A program made the translations under genes and the position numbers. A DNA stretch of 64,000 nucleotides from Paramecium tetraurelia (taxonomy: Eukaryota): positions 1 to 64,000 of the forward strand of contig CT867995.1 in assembly GCA_000165425.1 (NCBI GenBank), written 5' to 3'. Below are positions 12,387 to 23,562 of the stretch, in pieces (position 1 is the stretch's first letter; each line of letters opens with the position of its first letter). The notes beneath the pieces were generated by a model. It saw only the letters and a program-made list of their open reading frames with translations. It did not search any database and was not told where the DNA came from.

Positions 12387-15300
12387 ATGTCAAGTTAATG
12401 TTCTTTTGAAGAACTAAACTCATCTGTAAATTTGAGTTTGGACAGTGGGTTAATAAATGTTGTTTAGAATCCAAATGATTCAGAGTTGGATTTCAATTAG
12501 TTAGAGTCAGCAATATTGAGTTCGAAACAGGAAGGTCTAACAAAACTGATAAAGGGATCTGATTAATATTATTATTAATATTTCCTCAACATCCTAAATA
12601 CAAGTGGATATAGATTGGATTCTAAATAATTAGAAAACTTTGAATAGTATAAGAAGATGAATACAGAAAACTTTTAAAAAATAAGACTTAGATCTTTATT
12701 TATAGAATATGATGAACTAATGAATATGTAATAGAGTGAAAAAGTGAAACTGAAAGAACAAGAGATATTGAGAAAGATTAACAAAAGATTATTTGGATTT
12801 AGTTTCGAAGAATTATCGTAAAATAACTTAGATAGTGATTAATAAAAATTATTAATATAGAAATAGTAAGTAATTAGTGGGAATACATAAGCAAAAGTAG
12901 GACTTTCAGAATTGGATAATAGTAAATTATAAGTAGAAGAATACATAAAAAATGCATACTCTGAGAAAGGAATCTTGAAATTAAAGACTAATCTTCTTAG
13001 TAAATTAGATTTGATATAATTATCAAAATCCACTGTTAAAGTGATCGATATTTTCTTTACCAAAATTGATACATTAATAATTGAGTATTTAGATTTGTTT
13101 AAACAATAGATTAAATAATATACCAGAGTTTTACAATGAATTGATGAAGAGAGAGGATTATAAAAATAAATTTGACGCAGTTCATTTTAAAAAGCTTACT
13201 TTAAGTTAAATGAAATAGATAATGACATTAAATAATAGATTTTTGGAGAATCTACACTTTGTTGGATATCTATATTTTAAAAAGTATAATTTAGGTAAAT
13301 ATGATAAAAATGATGAAAAATTCTAAGATAATAAAGAATACTTTTTATCTACTTTAAAAAAGGCTTATTTATGGAGTAAAACTTTACCTGATAAATTCAA
13401 ATCATTAAGTGATCAAATATTACTTGAGTTGCTATAATTAGGTAATTGAATTTGAATTAATATATTAGGCATTGAATTTAAGCATTTTGATTTTGATCTA
13501 CTTTCAGAATACTTAAGAAACCCAAAAGATTATTATTCTAATTGTACTTAATAACAAAAAGATCATTAAAGCAAAATCAGAAGAGAATATCAATCGTTTT
13601 GGCATGATTTCCATGATTTTAACTTTTAGAGATGTATTTGATTTTATTATAATATAGGGATGTATCCAGATAAAATGATTGAGAAATATTTGGAGAAATA
13701 TTTCTAATTGCATGACAATTACAGCATATTTGAGTTGTATTTAGAAGCCAATTATTTAAAGATGTTAAAAGCTGAATGCAAACTCTACAAAGGAGATGAA
13801 GTCACTAATTTAACTGAATTCTTTACAAATTCACAAATTAAATAGATGAATAATAATAAGATTCTCAATTTGTGTGATTATAATAAATAATACTTTTTTA
13901 AAGGAGATCCAGTCACACTTTATATCGAATTGAAAAATATATCCAATCTAACAATTAAGATATTTTAAATCAACATGAAAAACTTTTATATGGCCAAAAG
14001 TGAATAACTAACTTCAAATATATGTTTAGATGGGTTTATTCCAACCGAAGAGATAAGCTTTACATATGATTATCCACCAATTAAGAAAGTAATCAAAGAA
14101 TTCTCATTTGAATCAATATAGAAAAGTGAAAGAGGAAGCTTTATTATTGAATTTATTGGTAATGGATTATCATCAAAAGCCATAATTGAAAAAGGACGGC
14201 TATGTTTACATGAAACCGTTGTGTCTGCTGGATATAAATATGAAATATTTGACGAAAACTTTGAGAAATTGGTTGATGAACAAATTGGATTATGGATTAA
14301 TGAAACTTATTACAAATAATCTAATGGTGAAATAATATTACCATTTCCAGAATCTGAGACTAAATATAATGCAATTATTCAACATGGTGATTTTTACTAG
14401 AAAACCTAGCTTAATTTATAACCTGAGTAATTCTAATTGCATTGTGCTTTTATATTAACTGAAGAATAAATTTAATTAGGATAAGAACTTACAACAATAA
14501 TTATACCAAAATTACTACTCAACAATTAAGATGTTGGATTTGGATTTTTTAAGGAATAATAAATTTTAGTAACATGTGTCAATGATAAAGGAGTTCCATA
14601 GACAATTACCTTTAAAGATCTCATTTTTGAAAGCAATGTCCCTCTAGAAGTTAAATTTCCAATTACCTAATAATTAAGGAATATTGATATTGAAGTCTCA
14701 GGAAGAATCAAGAGATTGCGTTTTGATTAAGATTTGATCCTAAAGAAGTTTCATCAAGTTAAATTCAATCATGGCTAATCATAACATATATTTTAGAAAC
14801 AATTGCTGAAATTTGATTAAAATGATGGATACTCAATCTATTTGTTAGGAAAAAATGGAGAACCTACCAGCAACGCATAAGTTTAAATCTAATTTGAACA
14901 TTCAGAAATAGATGATCTAATCTAAGAAAAGCTTATAACAAATTAATAAGGATAAATAAAATTAGGATTCTTGAAAAACATCTCTAAAATATCCTCATCT
15001 GTTCTTATTACAAACACATAAGTTGAAAAAAAGGAATGGGATCTATTCAATCCAAATAAATTTTGTTTAGAAAACTACTAAGAGACTTTTGTCGTTGGAC
15101 AGAAATTGACTCTTAAGTATCCCTCAGAATATACTGAATAGGATATTTTATTTTATAAAACCAAAAGTCTAAAATCAGTATTTTTACCTGTGAAAAATTT
15201 AATTTAAAAAGTATAAAGGGATAATAATTCGGTAATTTTTGAATTTGAGAAGAAAGGAAAATATATACTTGAATTTGTAAGAGAAAAAGTAATTTATTAA

Positions 15301-18300
15301 TTTAATGTTCTTGAAAGCAATGTCAAGCACAAAGATAATCTAATTTATACATCAACAAGAAGAATTTCTCAAAACTTAGCTGAAAAAAATTTCTCCTTGG
15401 AAAATACTAAAATCAGTTAGTAAGAGTAACACTTCGTTGTAGAAGGAGATTTTGTATCTTCAACTGAAGTTCGGTTTTTAGCCTTGGCAACAACTTTTTT
15501 CCCAAAAGAATTATCAATAATAAATAAACAAATGGGATCAATATTTTATTAAAATGTGTCTGACAATGATCTTAGAATAGAGTTGAGAGATAATATTTAT
15601 CTATCTAATTTATAATAATCAGAAGAATTAAGATATATCATTGAAAGAAAAAATTAAACTAAATATGTGGGAAATACTCTTGAAAAACCATAGATCCTGT
15701 TAAATAGACTACTTGCTGATTAAACAGTAACATAGGATGAATAAATATTGAAATAGGACCATAATTTAACAGGAAATGAAAGGAAAAGATGTGCATCATC
15801 TAGATTTTTGAAAAAAGCAGCTAATTAGTTTACAGGAAATTAATTATGTGATAGTTTTACAGAATTCTTATTGTTTCCTGGTAAAGTAATAACTCAGATC
15901 AATTAAGATAAGAATCACTTTTCATTTGAAGTTCCAAATTAATATTCTACTATTTTGATCTTAGCTTACGCTAACGAATCATACATCTCTAGGGTATTGC
16001 CATTATCCAATAGTGTTATATAAGCAAAGAACCTATGTCATCAGTCATCTTTATCAAAAGATAAATTTTACTCTACTTTTCGAAGCACAAAACAAATAGC
16101 ACCCAAAATTCCATATTAAATTTAAGATATATCTTCTACTGAAATTTTTATTTTGGATAACCTAAATGTATTGTTTAGAATTCAAAAGGAATTAATGAAA
16201 ATTGGAAATAAGAAATTAGTAGCTGAGGATGAAAAGTTCATCAATCAACTTTTGAAATGGAATCAAGAGTCTATTCAATCTCAACATAAATTTTATAATT
16301 AACATTAATGTGATGAACTTAATTTATTCTTGTATTTTAAAGATCCGGCATATTTTGAAACCTACATCTCAAAATATATTTCAAACAAAATTGAAAAATC
16401 ATTCATTGATTTCTTTTTACTAAAAGATAAGAATGCTCTTAGCAAATATGTATAGGTAACTTCATTTAAATAGTTAAACGCCTTAGAATAAGCCTTATTA
16501 GTCATTTATTTTTAAGAAATTATAGGCAATAAAGAATAAGCATAAGCTATTGCACTTTATATGAGCAATAATAATAATAACAATAAGCTGATTAAATAAG
16601 ATGACGATAGATTTAAAACACTATTTGATACAATTTTAGGAATTGAGAAGGATAGTTAAGGTGAGCAGGAAGAAATTCCTGAGAAAAAATAAAATGAAAT
16701 TGCTCCTCCTTACAGTCCTCCAAAAGAGCAAATGGTTTAAAATATGCAGCGTTAATTGAAAAAAAGATCATCTCTAATGAGGTTTGATAGTATTGATTAT
16801 AAACAGAAAGAAGATGATGATTCTTCTATGAGCATTTAATCAATTGTCCAATCTATTAAAAGTCGATCATCAGTTAAAAAAAATGTAAATAAAATTCCCG
16901 AAATGAAATTTCATAGCAAAGACTATAAGCCTTAGGAGCAAGCTTTAAAATATGATAAAATGAGAAATCAATTGATGAAGACTTTTTCAAATGTTGAAAC
17001 TACCAATGAGTATTGTGAGAAACATTATAGATATGGAGTGAATTAATAAGATTTTCATAATTTAGTTAAGCCTTAAGAGTTCTTTGTAGATCTTGTGAAT
17101 CATTCTATATAGAAAGGGTTTTTAAAATAAGATTTCTGTCCTTCATCTTTCATGCTTTGTAATAATAATTTTACAGAAATTCTTAGTGTATTAGCATTGA
17201 TGAGTTTACCATTTTAAACTCCTTAATTTAGCCAGACTTAATTTGGAAATAAAGGATTGGAGATCAATTATGAAAGTTCTGCGCTGATTTTTACTAGAGA
17301 AATCAAAGAGGCAGAAGTCTAACTTAATTCAAATATTATAATCAATTAAACATTTTTTGATATTACTGAAGAAAATTAAGTGGATTAGGATGGTAATGAA
17401 TATGAATAAGATTTGAGTGAGTTCTTTATTAAGAAGGTATATTGTTGTAAAATAGTTGTTTCGAATTGTTCAGCAATATCATAAACCTTTTAGTTATTAG
17501 TAGAAATTCCAAATGGTTCAATCCCAGTTTTTACAACATTTTCAACTAAAACATTTACTTTGACTTGTGCTCCTTATTAGACACAAATACAAAAGTACTT
17601 TTTCTATTTCCCAAAATCAGGAATATTCACAATATATCCAGCTAATATATCAAAGCTTGGTAAGGTCATTTAGATTGCAAAGGAGAAAACACTTTAAGTT
17701 TATGATTAAAAACCAAAAGTAAATCTAGAAAATATCAATGAAGTATTATCAACGGATAATAATAAAGATATTTTAAATTACATTGAGAATAAGAACATTT
17801 TCAATACTAAACTATTTAATCCAAAATTATTGTATCATAAATTTAGTGATTAAGTGTTTTATAATTAAGTGATGGAAATATATAGAAGGAGAAAGTTTTA
17901 TGATTTCCACAGTTTTGCTTATTCACTATTACACAATAACATTGAATGTTTGAAAGAGCTGTTTTTGACAGAATAAGGTCAAAATGCATTGAAATAGAAG
18001 TTTAAGCATTTTAAGTGTTCTTTGTTTGAAATCAATTCTATCAGAGTTCTTGAATATTATCCACTCATTATCAAGCGAGTTCATAAACTCAAATAAGGGG
18101 AGAATAATATACTAAATGTGTAATTTAGAAAGCAATATACAAATTATTTATCATATCTCCTGGAAAAACCATAATTTTCAACAGTTGATAAAATAGTCCT
18201 CATTTACTACTTGTTATTATAGGAGAGAGTAAACGAAGCTGTGTAAGTTTATGAATAAATAAGTGAGGAAGAGTAAAAAGAATAGCAATTATAATTTGAT

Positions 18301-19304
18301 TATTTGTCAGCATATTTAGACTTTTATACTGGATACCCAAATTTTCAGAAGGCTAGAGAAATATGTTAGAAATACTTGAGTTATCCAGTTATACATTGGA
18401 GGAATATGTTTTATGAAATAATCAATTTATTTATTGAATATGATGGAGAGGAAGATAATCAATTTACAAAATTAGAAACCACATAATAATAGAAATAAAA
18501 TGATATAATGAAGAATGAAGAAACATTAACATGTGCAATTGAAGCAGACTCAATCAATATTACATTCTCTAATTTATCTGAAGTGAAGATAGAATACTAT
18601 AAATTGGATATTGAAATTCTATTTTCTAATAATCCATTTTTGAAGAATGTGATTCAAGATTTTTCAATTGTGTTACCAAATGTATGCGTTACTCAAAAAC
18701 TTGTTGGTCAAGAAATCCAAAAGAAGTATATTATTAGTTAAATAAATTTAGTTTGTTTTAAGAGAAAATAAAGATTCCGAGTGAAATATCAAAGGAGAAT
18801 TTGTTTGTGACAATAAAAGGTAAGTAGAAATCAGTCACTTGTAAGTATTAACCAACATCGTTGTTTGTTCGAACGATGGTAGACTCTGGATAAATTAGAG
18901 TATTTAATTAATAGGGTTAATACTTATCTAAAGTTTATGTGAAAGTGTATTCTAAGAACAAAGGTGATTCAGAGACTTTCCACAAAGACGGATATACTGA
19001 TATAAGAGGAAGATTTGATTATGCTTCACTAAGTTCATCAAATGTGAAAGACATTGCTTAATTTTCAATGTTGATTTATCATGAAGATTTAGGTAATCAC
19101 AAATTTTAAATATTATTAGGATCTATTATATAGTAAGTCTCTCCTCCACCAACATTAGCATAATATGAAAAAGAAATACGGTTGATAGGGAACAAATGGA
19201 GAGAATAAGAAACCTAAGAAATGTTATAATAGCAATAAATATACAATTAGAAATTTACTAAACCATGTAAAGTTGAGTAAAAAAACATAGATAATATAGA
19301 TTGA
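12387..19304 (+). CDS. Giant (~2270 aa) conserved hypothetical protein with macroglobulin-like beta-sandwich segments and a helical C-terminal region
   Basis: One ORF under TAR=Gln with four tiny introns found (13085-13109, 13442-13468, 18726-18751, ~19092-19119). Motifs: LIKGSDQYYYQYFL, DPVTLYIELKNISNLTIKIFQIN, FIIEFIGNGLSSKAIIEKGRL, VEIPNGSIPV, YFFYFPKSG, LEYYPLIIKRVHKL, VYVKVY...FHKDGYTDIRGRFDYASLS. Confidence 0.9.
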
Positions 19305-19478: not shown

Positions 19479-20214
19479 ATGTAGGTTAATTATGAAGCAT
19501 TTATTGATGGTATAAATATATGAACAACCTTAGAGGCGAAAAACAAGATGATGAAATGGTAAGAAATCAACGAATAAAACATGTGGGAATTGTATTCAAA
19601 TAAAGATGGATATATTGTGTATACTAAAAAGAATCCAGAAAACGGAATAAATATGAATAGGACACAAACAGAAATAGCTAGAACACCTGATCAGATACTT
19701 GATTTGATAGGAGATGTGAATAAGAGACCTATGTATGATGAGAAAGTGGAAACTGTACTAATTATAAATTGACCATCATAGGCTCACGTTGTAGAATAGA
19801 TTGATGCAAATACAAGAATAGTTTATGTGAGAATCAAAGCACCCATTCCATTTATGAGCAGCAGAGATTTGATTATGGTTCAAAAAGTTTATAAATAAAA
19901 TGATGGCATTATCATTGTTTGTTGTATGATCATTATGTCTAATGCTTATTCTAGCTAAATCAATTATCCATTAGAAAACTCCTCCTATTCCTAAAATTGA
20001 GAGAGCAGAGATGCATTTGAGTGGTTGGATCATTATTCCATAACCAAACCAAGTATTATTTACTTATATTTATACTTAGATGACCAAACTCATAGCAATC
20101 CAATGTTTTGATCCAAAAGGAGATGTACCTTAATCAGTGACCAATCAATATGCAAAATTGTAATCAGATATGATGAAAGCAGCAGTCAAATTTATTGCAC
20201 TTAATTATAAATGA
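19479..20214 (+). CDS. START-domain lipid-transfer protein
   Basis: Motifs WELYSNKDGYIVY, RPMYDEKV, IKAPIPFMSSRDL, PPIPKIERA and FDPKGDVPQSVTN; four tiny introns. Confidence 0.9.
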
Positions 20215-20245
20215 GTATTTATTAACACAAATTCAATAATGATAA

Positions 20246-22271
20246 TCATTTGTTAAACATATATTTCATAAGGCTGTTTTCCATTCTTGTTAGAGGCATT
20301 TCGATAAACAAACAGAACAATGTTGAACATATTTGAGTGATAAACAAATTCCCAATGTAAAGTGTGAATATAGTTTCGAATGAGAAATTGGGCGTTTAAT
20401 AGAATTGCCCTAGTAATCCAAAGATTATTATCTAATGTATTAAGTAACCAGAAAAGGAAATCTTGTTAATAAACCTAAAGTAATTGTTCCTCATAAACGT
20501 CATGTTGAATCTAAGATATATAAAATATCAATTACACATCTTTCATCCCAAATAGACATGGCAAACATAAGACACTCATTCCCAAAGCTATTCCTAATCG
20601 ACAAAAGGCAAACCAGAAACTCTAAATGGTTTTATTCCAATAATCCTAATGTTCATAATGCAATTGAGCCGGTCTCCATCCAAACCATATTCCTCCAATA
20701 ATTAATATACCCAATAAATAGCAAAACAACTTAAAATTAAGTTGTCTCTGTTAAGCAAATGCCTATAATCTACTTAATGCATTCACATTATTTTCTTTCA
20801 ATTCTCTGTATAAAACTCCTAATAGGAATCCCAAATAATATGGGGGACCTCTCGTAAATGGTTTCGTGTAGTAATTCTAATGCATATTCGGTTAAGTCAA
20901 AGCGAAAGGAGGCAACAAATACTCATTCACTAATGACATCACTGTTCCAATAGTTTGAGTGATTATTAACAATGATACTATCATAGCCTTGGCGACTTTT
21001 GAATTGACTTTTGCATAAAAGAACACCGGAATCAAACAAGAGATGAACAATTGCATATCCGTTGATAAATACCAACCCCATGGAAAACAATATTAAGTAT
21101 CATAGAAGAGGTTATCTATAAATATTAGGTTTCTCCATCCTGTTGCACATTCAAAACGATCCAAAGCCATAAACCATCTTGGTCCATCTCCTAAGTATGG
21201 TACTAACTATGAACTTATCAGAATGGCTATTGCATAACAAGGCCAAATTCTCAATATCCTATGTAATAAGAATCCAAATATTGAGAATCCATTTCTCTTC
21301 ACTAGTTTCACTTTGCTCTTCTCCAATAACATGTAAGCACTAAAAAACCCACCAAGCCAAAAGAACATGTCTACACTATATAGCATATTAACTAAGTTTA
21401 AACATAACCACGATTTCAATTACGCTATCATTTCAAATCTAAATGAAGATTTAGCTAAATCTAGAAATTGATGACCAAAGATCACCATAAAAAATCCTAT
21501 TGATCTATATCCCTCCATAATACTTAAATTTGTATCGTGATCTTTGAATGTGAATAGTGTATTGTAACTTGTCTAAATAGAATAATCTAAGAAACACAAT
21601 TTATTCGTTTCCTCTTGTTTTACAACTGGAATCTAATTGTTTGTCAATCCTTAATTTTCATCATCCTGCTTTTCATTATTTTCAATATCTCTTATATTAA
21701 TAGAAACTTTGACTTATCTTTTGATATTTATTAACTAACAAAATATTGGATTGAAACAACTTAGGAGCAACAACATTCCAATAAGAAAAAGTGTCAATAT
21801 GAACATAACACCTGAATTCTTATTATAATTAAGAGGGTCATAAAAAATGAAATCAGCATTGTCTAATGACACCTTGAATAACTTCAATTTTACATTATAT
21901 GTATCTAAGATCCCTGTTGAATTGATCAACTCCTTAAAATCAGACTAAAATTATTCATCATTGAAGTCATCCGTTGTACATTCTCTTGAATGACATAATC
22001 CATAATAACTGGGCACGGGTTCCATTTCTATTTTCAGACTTGAATAATAATATCCCTTTCTTAAACAAGTTTCAAACATACCAAATTGATTAAGACTACC
22101 TTATAATAACAAATAGTACCTTGTTCCTGATAAACTTACATATGGCCATATATCTTCAAAAAGCTTCTTGTATCCTTCAATTTCAGCTTTCACCAAAAGG
22201 GATGTCATGTAATGTTGACAAGACTCCTAGGATGCAATTACAATTGGTATTAGTATATAATTTAATAACAT
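20246..22271 (-). CDS. Acyltransferase-3 / NRF-6-like multi-pass membrane O-acyltransferase
   Basis: Signal peptide and Cys-containing N-domain (GMFETC). Motifs EGYRSIGFFMVIFGH, YSVDMFFWLGGF, HRILRIWPCY, CFPWGWYLSTDMQLF, YYTKPFTRGPPYILG and IEMPL. Confidence 0.9.
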
Positions 22272-22372
22272 TAATTAATATTTCAGTATAGTGAAATTAG
22301 CAAAATGGAAGTAGAAATTCACTAAGATAAATTAAATGATAACATTCAATGAGTATATCATTTGATTTAATA

Positions 22373-23562
22373 ATGAAATAAGATAGACATTTTTCAAGAT
22401 CCCGAAGAAGCACCTCTCCATAACTCAAAAATAAAAAGGCACTAAAAAACAAACAAAAGAAAAACCATAACTTACAATCTTCATCTTCCAAAACCAAATC
22501 AATATCACAAGAAATTTAACCTGGCTTACCTGAAGAAAGGAATATCCTCAATTTGATTTAGGAACTGGAAACCTAAGATTAGAAAGGGATCGAAAATCAG
22601 AAACTTATTCACTTATGTCTTTAGGATACCTAAAATCCAAGTATTAAATATATAGATCTATTTAGTTATAAACGAAAACCAAGAACTTTCAGAGATCTAG
22701 AGATAATCACAATATAACTAAAATTATCACTAAGAATGTCAACAATCAATGAGAAATGAATACGTCTTCCTTGGGAATAGTCTTTCAAAACACATGATCT
22801 CTGAGAGACAGAGAGTCAAGATGGTTAATTGGATGGTCGAAGTCTTAAGTAATTATAATGAAACTACATCCGATATTACTTTCTTCAGATCTGTTTCCAT
22901 AATGGATCACTACCTCTAAAAATCTATTTTCAAATTTTCTGATAGTAATCTTCATCTTATTGGCATCACTTCCATGTTTATTGCTACGAAACTTGAAGAT
23001 ATTTATCATATCCCTTTGAAAGATTTTGTAACCAGAGTTAGTCATAATTAATATTCCTTGTATATATATTATCTAATTTAGTTTCGCAATCAAAGCGATG
23101 GAACAATCAATCTTGGAAACCTTAAATTTTGAGGTCACATTCCCAACCTCATTGGACTTTTTGCAAAATATCTTTTACTAATGTTTTAGTTTGAATGACA
23201 AGTATTAATTTCTTATTATTACTTTAGTCCTAATTTACAAGATATTTTAGATTCTAGTATCTATATATTGAAAATGTGTTTATATGATTACACTATGACA
23301 TCCTTCAATTTATATACTCTCGCAGCTTCCTCCCTTATATTTTCCATAAAAGACTTTGTCAACAAAAATTATCTAAATGATCGAAATATCGTCATCGATC
23401 AATTTGTAATCATTTATACTATCAATTTAGTACAATAAAATTATGTAAATCTCTTAAATCGATTAAACAGAGCTTAATTCATGTGAAGTCTATATATAGG
23501 ATCTAGTTGGTTCTTTTCATATTTTATATCCTCTATTCCGCAATTTACAATAATATTCATGA
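22373..23562 (+). CDS. Cyclin (A/B-type cyclin box)
   Basis: RVKMVNWMVEV...FFRSVSIMDHYL...LHLIGITSMFIATKLEDI...MEQSILETLNFEVTFPT; several tiny introns. Confidence 0.92.

What the first reader, a model, noticed from the sequence alone, without database searches (positions are those of the whole stretch)
12387..19304. Giant ~2270-aa protein resembling an uncharacterised Planctomycete/myxobacterial family with macroglobulin-like domains
Seen: a very long ORF with only four introns found and strongly patterned blocks (LIKGSDQYYY; PVTLYIELKNISNLTIKIFQIN...LDG; IEFIGNGLSSKAIIEKGRL; LGKNGEP; LVEIPNGSIP; YFFYFPKSG; EYYPLIIKRVH; VYVKVY...FHKDGYTDIRGRFDYASL). It has no signal peptide. Recalled, not searched: near-identical motifs occur in ~2000-aa hypothetical proteins of Planctomycetes, Verrucomicrobia and myxobacteria and in scattered protists. 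'G-x-P...TN-x-x-G' and 'KVY...DG-x-TD-x-x-G' resemble bacterial alpha-2-macroglobulin MG domains, but I saw no CGEQ thioester motif. Inference: a functionally undescribed, patchily distributed, possibly horizontally acquired cytosolic scaffold, cage or protease-trap protein. It is the best candidate for a novel system in this window.
Basis: partly seen in the sequence, partly recalled or inferred. Interest (0 to 1): 0.72.

Follow-up and report, generated by a model that had tools for sequence, protein, structure and literature searches.

The report
Paramecium CAGE-complex cage protein gene

Summary
Window 12387-19304 (+) is one gene read with the ciliate code. The four frame-restoring introns are real. 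There is also a fifth, in-frame 27-nt intron (19093-19119). The five-intron model gives 2262 aa, identical to the database protein GSPATT00028957001 of P. tetraurelia.

No Pfam, NCBIfam or PDB sequence match passes threshold. The family is large: 2467 representatives in 1.84 billion proteins. It includes hundreds of Planctomycetota, Verrucomicrobiota and other bacterial genomes.

It is not undescribed. It aligns end to end with Tetrahymena CAGE1, CAGE2 and CAGE3. A 2025 preprint (10.1101/2025.09.22.677704) showed that family to form a ~1 MDa homotetrameric hollow cage, and its homologue table lists this very accession.

My AlphaFold models reproduce the published domain order. Their best structural matches are alpha-2-macroglobulin/complement MG arrays, at fold level only. 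There is no thioester motif and no A2M Pfam domain.

All ciliate copies form one clade, so this is not a recent transfer. Bacterial copies have no conserved gene neighbour.

Verdict: already known family, function still open.

The parts
12387..13084 (+). Exon 1 (ATG at 12387); start of the N-terminal region that aligns to alpha-helical domains D1-D2 of Tetrahymena CAGE1
   Evidence: not modelled here
13085..13109 (+). Intron 1, 25 nt, GTA...TAG
   Evidence: no gap against P0001 at this junction
13110..13441 (+). Exon 2
13442..13468 (+). Intron 2, 27 nt, removes an in-frame TGA
13469..13633 (+). Exon 3
13634..13657 (+). Intron 3, 24 nt, removes an in-frame TGA
13658..18725 (+). Exon 4 (residues 399-2088), the bulk of the protein
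13861..16005 (+). Array of six Ig/MG-like beta-sandwich domains (residues 467-1181; aligns to CAGE1 D3-D8), interrupted by a disordered loop at residues 1078-1123
   Evidence: AF2 model m00e664432ea9; Foldseek and VIA matches to A2M/complement; domain mapping
16156..16674 (+). Alpha-helical domain (residues 1232-1404; aligns to CAGE1 D11) with invariant E, K and D residues (the conserved HELN...EK..D block)
16675..17043 (+). Low-complexity, poorly conserved, low-confidence linker (about residues 1405-1527)
   Evidence: pLDDT under 50 at the ends of both models; unconserved columns
17308..17715 (+). MG/CARDB-like beta-sandwich (residues 1616-1751; aligns to CAGE1 D12), holds the EIPNGSIPV and YFFYFPKSG motifs
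   Evidence: ECAM 4ziu Z 11.0, rmsd 2.4 over 116; Salmonella A2M 4u48 Z 11.2, rmsd 2.7 over 116
17734..18516 (+). Two helical domains (residues 1758-2018; align to CAGE1 D13-D14); the second is TPR-like
   Evidence: (Fis1, LpoA-N, CTR9, Z about 9)
18726..18751 (+). Intron 4, 26 nt
18752..19092 (+). Exon 5; with the end of exon 4 and exon 6 it encodes the C-terminal beta domain (aligns to CAGE1 D15), which holds the family's most conserved motif KVYVKVY...FHKDGYTDIRGRFDY
   Evidence: (TTR-52 E 0.0045, below cut-off)
19093..19119 (+).
19120..19304 (+). Exon 6 with the TGA stop at 19302-19304

Best explanation
[quoted passage not shown] Shown here: it is homologous along its whole length to Tetrahymena CAGE1, CAGE2 and CAGE3 and to ~2100-aa bacterial proteins, and it has the same order of helical and beta-sandwich domains (my odds for membership: about 0.97). 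Inferred from homologues whose structures were solved by others: four copies assemble with D2 symmetry into a ~1 MDa hollow shell of about 22 x 16 x 12 nm, enclosing roughly 600 nm3 and open through slits (about 0.8). Proposed mechanism, which is inference only: an energy-independent container or holdase that takes macromolecular clients into its lumen or onto its walls. In Paramecium it would act in the cytosol or ciliary matrix; in bacteria, outside the cytoplasm (about 0.35; the function is unknown in every organism).
For: Sequence: the window protein aligns 46-2218 of 2262 to 16-2208 of 2216 of TTHERM_00565630 (CAGE1) in one segment, 28.6% identity, 746 bits. It aligns 34-1876 to CAGE3, TTHERM_00530680 (789 bits). 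It aligns to CAGE2, TTHERM_00444610, in three colinear segments (E 1.6e-100 on the C-terminal 509 aa). The locus tags and UniProt ids match those in the preprint. The accession XP_001425320.1 is row 3087 of the preprint's homologue table. Architecture: AF2 models (pLDDT 81.2 and 82.1) give secondary-structure blocks whose limits fall within about 10-20 residues of the CAGE1 domain limits D3-D14 carried over by alignment. As the preprint reports for CAGE1, there are no Pfam domains, and the beta domains hit A2M by Foldseek. Energy independence: no nucleotide-binding or any other Pfam domain in the window protein or in 22 of 22 diverse members. By a crude test, 50 of 109 full-length representatives have a signal-peptide-like N-terminus (2 of 2 named bacterial controls positive, 0 of 7 named eukaryotic). 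The preprint reports the same with DeepTMHMM. A periplasmic or secreted location leaves no ATP to use. Bacterial genes stand alone: among 36 loci with full flanks, the most widely shared neighbour family (a sulfatase) is in 6 of 36.
Against: Nothing was tested on the Paramecium protein itself. The tetramer could not be modelled (size limits), and residues 1-399 and 2088-2262 were not folded. The preprint saw no cargo density in either cage and states that the function is unknown. Reported partners (Asf1/importin beta, actin, IFT proteins) may bind the outside of the cage. My two trees disagree on which Tetrahymena paralogue is closest, so no partner can be carried over by orthology. RNA depth on the gene is low.
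Confidence: 0.8

Rival explanations
1. A thioester-less relative of alpha-2-macroglobulin that works as a protease trap. A disordered loop would serve as bait, and cleavage would close the cage around the protease.
For: The top 35 Foldseek ranks for the beta array are all CD109, complement, A2M, TEP or bacterial A2M (E 8.9e-13 to about 5e-10). VIA's best rows are Salmonella and E. coli A2M (Z 12.8 and 12.2). The C-terminal sandwich matches A2M MG domains (Z 11, rmsd 2.4-2.7 over 116). There are weak Pfam MG4 hits in 4 of 14 close relatives (best E 5.1e-5). Two long, low-confidence, unconserved loops lie at residues 1078-1123 and about 1405-1527. A2M is also a tetrameric cage, and bacterial CAGE, like bacterial A2M, appears to be exported.
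Against: No CGEQ-type motif. No A2M-family Pfam domain in 0 of 22 diverse members at E 0.001. TM-scores are only 0.10-0.15 and rmsd exceeds 12 A over the multi-domain matches, and titin ranks 36th, so the signal is partly that of generic sandwich arrays. The helical domain matches TPR-like folds, not clearly the thioester domain. The eukaryotic proteins are cytosolic.
Confidence: 0.1
2. A large scaffold or adaptor whose function lies on its outer surface, for example regulating Asf1-H3-H4 nuclear import, or binding actin or IFT trains. The cavity would be incidental.
For: Tetrahymena CAGE3 and CAGE1 were first found as Asf1-interacting proteins Aip1 and Aip2, also recovered with importin beta6 (review PMC6562869, passages; preprint discussion). 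Dictyostelium AbpF was named as an actin binder, and exterior cross-links to IFT proteins are reported. TPR-like helical domains are typical interaction modules.
Against: Asf1, actin and IFT have no counterparts in the bacteria that hold most family members. The preprint reports that the cavity and slits are conserved between Tetrahymena and Dictyostelium at about 25% identity. The preprint's authors did not recover the Asf1 interaction.
Confidence: 0.2
3. A bacterial gene recently acquired by Paramecium through horizontal transfer.
For: Most known members are bacterial (preprint). The distribution among eukaryotes is patchy. Phalansterium groups with bacterial sequences in both trees, though on long branches.
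Against: The gene has five canonical 24-27-nt Paramecium introns and 117 TAA plus 38 TAG in-frame glutamine codons. GC is 21-28%, like its flanks. All 24 ciliate sequences (Paramecium, Tetrahymena, Pseudocohnilembus) form one clade with SH-like support 100, and all 14 Paramecium sequences form one clade inside it. The bacterial signal peptide is absent.
Confidence: 0.03
4. A nanocompartment or enzyme with a catalytic site, not yet recognised, that lines the lumen.
For: A handful of polar residues are invariant across 51 bacterial and eukaryotic sequences: the conserved DExxYxxxRK-type block, the HELN...EK..D block, the R of EYxPLxNxRAH, and KDGYTDxRGRFDY.
Against: No match to any enzyme family in Pfam, NCBIfam or PDB sequences. 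The preprint found no cofactor or enzymatic motif. Invariant residues may equally serve folding or subunit contacts.
Confidence: 0.08

Closest known systems
CAGE complex proteins: Tetrahymena thermophila CAGE1 (TTHERM_00565630), CAGE2 (TTHERM_00444610), CAGE3 (TTHERM_00530680) and Dictyostelium AbpF (DDB_G0291229); preprint 10.1101/2025.09.22.677704
   Same: Length is about 2200 aa. Homology is colinear along the full length (28-31% identity). The order of helical and beta-sandwich domains is the same. There are no Pfam domains and no signal peptide. This accession is listed in the preprint's table.
   Different: Paramecium has five paralogues in P. tetraurelia. They form their own clade and are not 1:1 orthologues of CAGE1, CAGE2 or CAGE3. 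Assembly, location and partners are untested in Paramecium.
Alpha-2-macroglobulin / complement C3-C5 / TEP / CD109 superfamily, including bacterial ECAM and Salmonella A2M
   Same: A long chain of MG-type beta-sandwiches followed by a helical domain and a terminal sandwich. These are the best structural matches. Human A2M is likewise a tetrameric cage.
   Different: No thioester motif. No A2M Pfam domains above threshold. Domain packing differs (TM 0.10-0.15). The helical part looks TPR-like. The eukaryotic protein is cytosolic. A large N-terminal helical region is present.
Other hollow megadalton assemblies (vault, chaperonins, encapsulins and carboxysome shells)
   Same: A homo-oligomeric shell around a large cavity. 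For the vault, function likewise remains unclear. This comparison is drawn from the preprint's discussion and general knowledge.
   Different: No sequence or fold relation was found here. There are four very large subunits rather than many small ones, no ATPase domain, and open slits rather than a closed shell.

Membership tests
CAGE complex family | Full-length colinear sequence homology to Tetrahymena CAGE1, CAGE2 and CAGE3 | tested here: met
   CAGE1: 46-2218 to 16-2208, 28.6% identity, 746 bits. CAGE3: 34-1876 to 3-1877, 789 bits. CAGE2: three colinear segments. Ids checked against the preprint.
CAGE complex family | Single chain of about 1900-2400 aa without recognised Pfam/SCOP domains | tested here: met
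   2262 aa. No Pfam or NCBIfam family above cut-off. 0 of 22 diverse members hit Pfam at E 0.001.
CAGE complex family | Domain order: helical D1-D2, six Ig-like sandwiches D3-D8, helical D11, sandwich D12, helical D13-D14, beta D15 | tested here: met
   Met for D3-D14. AF2 secondary-structure blocks coincide with the CAGE1 domain limits carried over by alignment. D1-D2 and most of D15 were aligned but not folded here.
CAGE complex family | Homotetrameric D2 hollow cage of about 1 MDa | not testable with these tools
   4 x 2262 residues exceeds the limits of structure prediction and complex prediction. Shown by cryo-EM only for the Tetrahymena and Dictyostelium homologues (preprint).
CAGE complex family | Eukaryotic members lack a secretion signal; bacterial members mostly carry one | tested here: met
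   Crude hydrophobic-window test: window protein negative; 2 of 2 named bacterial controls positive; 0 of 7 named eukaryotic controls positive; 50 of 109 full-length representatives positive. No dedicated predictor was run.
Alpha-2-macroglobulin / TEP superfamily | Thioester motif (CGEQ type) in a thioester domain | tested here: not met
   No match to CGEQ, C[GAS]E[QN], CLEQ or GC.E in the protein.
Alpha-2-macroglobulin / TEP superfamily | Pfam A2M-family domains at gathering score | tested here: not met
   None in the window protein. MG4 only below threshold in 4 of 14 Paramecium-type relatives. 0 of 22 diverse members.
Alpha-2-macroglobulin / TEP superfamily | Array of MG-fold beta-sandwiches | tested here: met
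   Fold level only. Foldseek top 35 ranks are all from this superfamily. VIA Z 12.8 (rmsd 12.4 over 390) for the array. Z 11 (rmsd 2.4-2.7 over 116) for a single domain. Generic sandwiches score nearly as high.
Alpha-2-macroglobulin / TEP superfamily | Alpha/alpha-toroid thioester domain between MG7/CUB and the last MG domain | tested here: inconclusive
   A helical region sits in the equivalent place. Its compact matches are TPR-like (Z about 9). The complement and TEP rows that span it have rmsd 18-21 A. The domain was not folded alone.
Alpha-2-macroglobulin / TEP superfamily | Protease-sensitive bait region | not testable with these tools
   Disordered loops exist, but their cleavage and its effect need an experiment.

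The most novel reading that the evidence does not exclude
CAGE is an ancient, thioester-free branch of the macroglobulin world. Its MG-type sandwich array and flexible loops would form an ATP-independent trap or holdase that captures proteins in the bacterial periplasm and in the eukaryotic cytosol or cilium. Paramecium's five lineage-specific paralogues would build separate homotetramers specialised for different clients or compartments (ciliary matrix versus the nuclear-import route).
Probability: 0.12. Interest if true: 0.7.

Novelty: already known. Interest (0 to 1): 0.3.

Why it matters
The family is one of the few megadalton assemblies shared by bacteria and protists that has no known function, so any tractable model organism helps. 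Paramecium offers RNAi by feeding, deciliation and regrowth assays, and five paralogues to compare. The gene has a fifth intron. The Paramecium copies are lineage-specific duplicates rather than orthologues of CAGE1, CAGE2 or CAGE3. Bacterial genes have no conserved operon partner; the words operon, neighbor, neighbour and synteny do not occur in the preprint's main text. The reported loss of the C-terminal domains in Tetrahymena CAGE3 may be a gene-model artefact. None of this changes the verdict that the finding itself is already described.

Tried and rejected
- NCBIfam and a PDB sequence-profile search (only eIF3k at E 0.3-0.38) gave nothing. The solved Dictyostelium cage did not appear in the PDB copies searched.
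- The search of earlier findings returned no earlier notes.
- The first literature search, on Planctomycete giant genes and HGT, was irrelevant. The gene ids GSPATT00028957001, GSPATT00018092001 and GSPATT00005249001 and their UniProt ids occur in no searchable paper text. Of the 15 papers listed, only the CAGE preprint concerns this protein family.
- No whole genome is held for the window, so paralogues were counted from the preprint's table instead.
- RNA: no RNA holder was listed in the index. Laying three raw RNA runs gave sense-strand coverage but no joints, so the introns are not confirmed by reads.
- An IQ-TREE-type run timed out, so only FastTree trees were obtained. The sister relation of the Paramecium clade to CAGE3 (SH 98) dissolved into a trichotomy when CAGE1 sequences were added, and I dropped that claim.
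- A conserved bacterial operon partner is rejected. The best shared neighbour is a sulfatase in 6 of 36 loci; all others are in at most 4 of 36. Recalled, from no call: sulfatases are very numerous in Planctomycetes.
- A2M membership is rejected at sequence level.
- The interface domains are not described in the preprint, and fragments under 1000 residues would have been a blind guess.
Full report
**The sequence.** The region is AT-rich (GC 0.21-0.28). Under the ciliate code it holds a 1722-codon open frame on the + strand (13642-18810), flanked by shorter + strand frames.

Four short GTA...TAG introns restore one reading frame: 13085-13109, 13442-13468, 13634-13657 and 18726-18751, of 25, 27, 24 and 26 nt. 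That frame is 2271 codons long, from ATG 12387 to TGA 19302-19304. This product aligns 1-2271 to a 2260-aa P. octaurelia protein at 93% identity, with no gap at any junction.

The only 9-residue gap pointed to a fifth intron at 19093-19119. It is 27 nt, GTA...TAG, in frame and stop-free. With it removed the product is 2262 aa. That product is identical to P0221, which its sources name GSPATT00028957001 of P. tetraurelia. The CDS uses 117 TAA and 38 TAG as sense codons and ends in TGA. There is one copy in the window.

Three stranded oligo-dT RNA runs cover the gene only in the sense orientation. Depth is low and 3'-biased, and no joints were reported, so reads neither confirm nor contradict the introns.

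**No known domain, but a very large family.**
- Pfam and NCBIfam give nothing above cut-off for the exon translations. The best hit is a sub-threshold transthyretin-like match in the last part (E 0.0045).
- A profile of 14 relatives finds no solved structure by sequence.
- Among those 14, Pfam MG4 and TTR-52 appear below threshold in 4 each. Among 22 diverse members, none hits any Pfam family at E 0.001.
- phmmer with 1200 residues of exon 4, run against 1.84 billion representatives, finds 2467 proteins at E 0.001 or better and 811 at 1e-30 or better. Most are about 2100 aa.
- Named examples include a Phycisphaeraceae MAG and the amoebozoan Phalansterium; 7 of the 10 looked up had no name.
Of the 75 loci kept, 55 carry Planctomycetota-type titles. 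The other 20 are Riflebacteria/Ozemobacter, Verrucomicrobiota, Kiritimatiellia, Lentisphaeria, Victivallales, Desulfobacteraceae, Myxococcales, Elusimicrobia, one Erysipelotrichia MAG and one unclassified. The ranking favours relatives of the Phycisphaeraceae query.

**Structure.** Two AlphaFold models were built on 51-sequence alignments.
- Residues 400-1409: pLDDT 81.2.
- Residues 1489-2087: pLDDT 82.1.

Together they show, in order:
- the end of a helical region;
- six beta-sandwich domains, interrupted by a disordered loop;
- a helical domain;
- a low-confidence linker;
- another sandwich;
- two helical domains;
- the start of a terminal beta domain.

For the sandwich array, Foldseek's top 35 ranks are all CD109, complement, A2M, TEP or bacterial A2M (E 8.9e-13 to about 5e-10). 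TM-scores are only 0.10-0.15, and titin follows at rank 36. VIA-align puts Salmonella and E. coli A2M first (Z 12.8 and 12.2, rmsd above 12 A over 390-474 residues). The single sandwich at residues 1616-1751 matches A2M-family MG domains (Z 11, rmsd 2.4-2.7 A over 116), but generic Ig-like domains score 9-10.7. The helices at residues 1858-1995 match TPR-like folds. No thioester motif exists. The likeness to A2M is therefore at fold level only.

**Identification.** A literature search found the preprint 'The CAGE complex' (10.1101/2025.09.22.677704). I read its abstract, all of Results and Discussion, and passages elsewhere. It reports the following.
- Cryo-EM shows a ~1 MDa D2 homotetramer of Tetrahymena CAGE1 and of Dictyostelium AbpF.
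- Each subunit has 15 domains, with no Pfam hits.
- Foldseek matches domains 4 and 6 to A2M.
- There are several thousand homologues, mostly bacterial.
- Most bacterial members carry signal peptides.
- The function is unknown.

A second word search retrieved TTHERM_00444610 (CAGE2, E 1.6e-100) and TTHERM_00530680 (CAGE3, E 1.5e-56). A third retrieved TTHERM_00565630 (CAGE1). The ids agree with the preprint.

The window protein aligns to CAGE1 in a single segment, 46-2218 to 16-2208, at 28.6% identity and 746 bits. CAGE1's published domain limits, carried over by alignment, coincide with my AF2 blocks for D3-D14. The preprint's supplementary table (media-3.csv, searched by term, not read through) lists XP_001425320.1, which is this protein, at row 3087. 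It lists five P. tetraurelia homologues in all.

**Evolution.** Two FastTree trees (25 and 29 rows; SH-like support only; long branches flagged) place all ciliate sequences in one clade. All Paramecium sequences form one clade inside it (support 100). The five P. tetraurelia genes, or their 90%-cluster representatives, fall in four lineages plus one closer pair. The first tree made the Paramecium clade sister to CAGE3 (98). The second left a trichotomy, so I claim no 1:1 orthology. This pattern, together with the introns and codon usage, argues against recent transfer into Paramecium.

**Bacterial context.** In 36 loci with full 8-kb flanks (508 ORFs of 100 aa or more), no neighbour family is widely shared. 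The most widely shared neighbour family, a sulfatase, is in 6 of 36; the rest are in at most 4 of 36. By a crude N-terminal test, 50 of 109 full-length representatives look exported, and the controls behaved as expected.

**Mechanism.**
- Shown: family membership and shared architecture.
- Inferred from solved homologues: a hollow homotetramer.
- Proposed: an energy-independent container or holdase. There is no nucleotide-binding domain anywhere in the family sampled, and the bacterial members sit where ATP is absent.

The rivals are an A2M-like trap, an exterior scaffold, and an unrecognised enzyme. I weigh them in the fields above. None is excluded.

**Verdict.** The function remains an open question.

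Noticed in passing
P0211, P0231, P0170, P0171 (Tetrahymena CAGE3 and orthologues): The preprint says CAGE3 (1890 aa) lacks domains 14-15. But its T. malaccensis and T. utriculariae orthologues are 2274 and 2281 aa. They match it at 88% identity over its residues 1-1881 and then continue for about 390 residues. An older 2226-aa version in the same 90% cluster aligns to the full length of those orthologues and to window residues 34-2261. The 'loss' may be a gene-model truncation.
   Followed up: partly
window 19524-19800 (+): RNA depth jumps to 44-61 just downstream of the gene, in the same orientation. Reads break off at 19648 and 19653, and there are several mixed positions (19595-19707). This looks like a well-expressed small neighbouring gene with an intron, a paralogue or an allele. 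The 82-aa frame has no Pfam hit.
   Followed up: no
window 20148-22424 (-): A 759-codon frame on the opposite strand encodes an Acyl_transf_3 membrane acyltransferase (PF01757, E 2.2e-15).
   Followed up: no
P0150 in the trees: The Phalansterium (Amoebozoa) sequence groups with the two bacterial sequences (SH-like 100) and not with the ciliates. The branches are long and composition is skewed, so this may be an artefact. It bears on the direction of bacteria-eukaryote transfer, which the preprint leaves open.
   Followed up: no
P0167 (P. sonneborni, 996 aa): A 996-aa annotated protein matches the C-terminal 509 residues at 48% identity and also carries RNA polymerase III Rpc25 Pfam domains (PF08292, PF03876). 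It is probably a merged or truncated gene model.
   Followed up: no
L041 (Erysipelotrichia MAG), L042 (Elusimicrobia MAG): Family members turn up in MAGs of phyla outside the main PVC/Riflebacteria range, on short contigs (about 6-8 kb). Mis-binning cannot be excluded.
   Followed up: no
L008, L018, L040 and three further loci: A sulfatase gene lies near the CAGE gene in 6 of 36 bacterial loci, in four of them downstream on the same strand. This may be chance (recalled, from no call: these phyla carry many sulfatases).
   Followed up: partly
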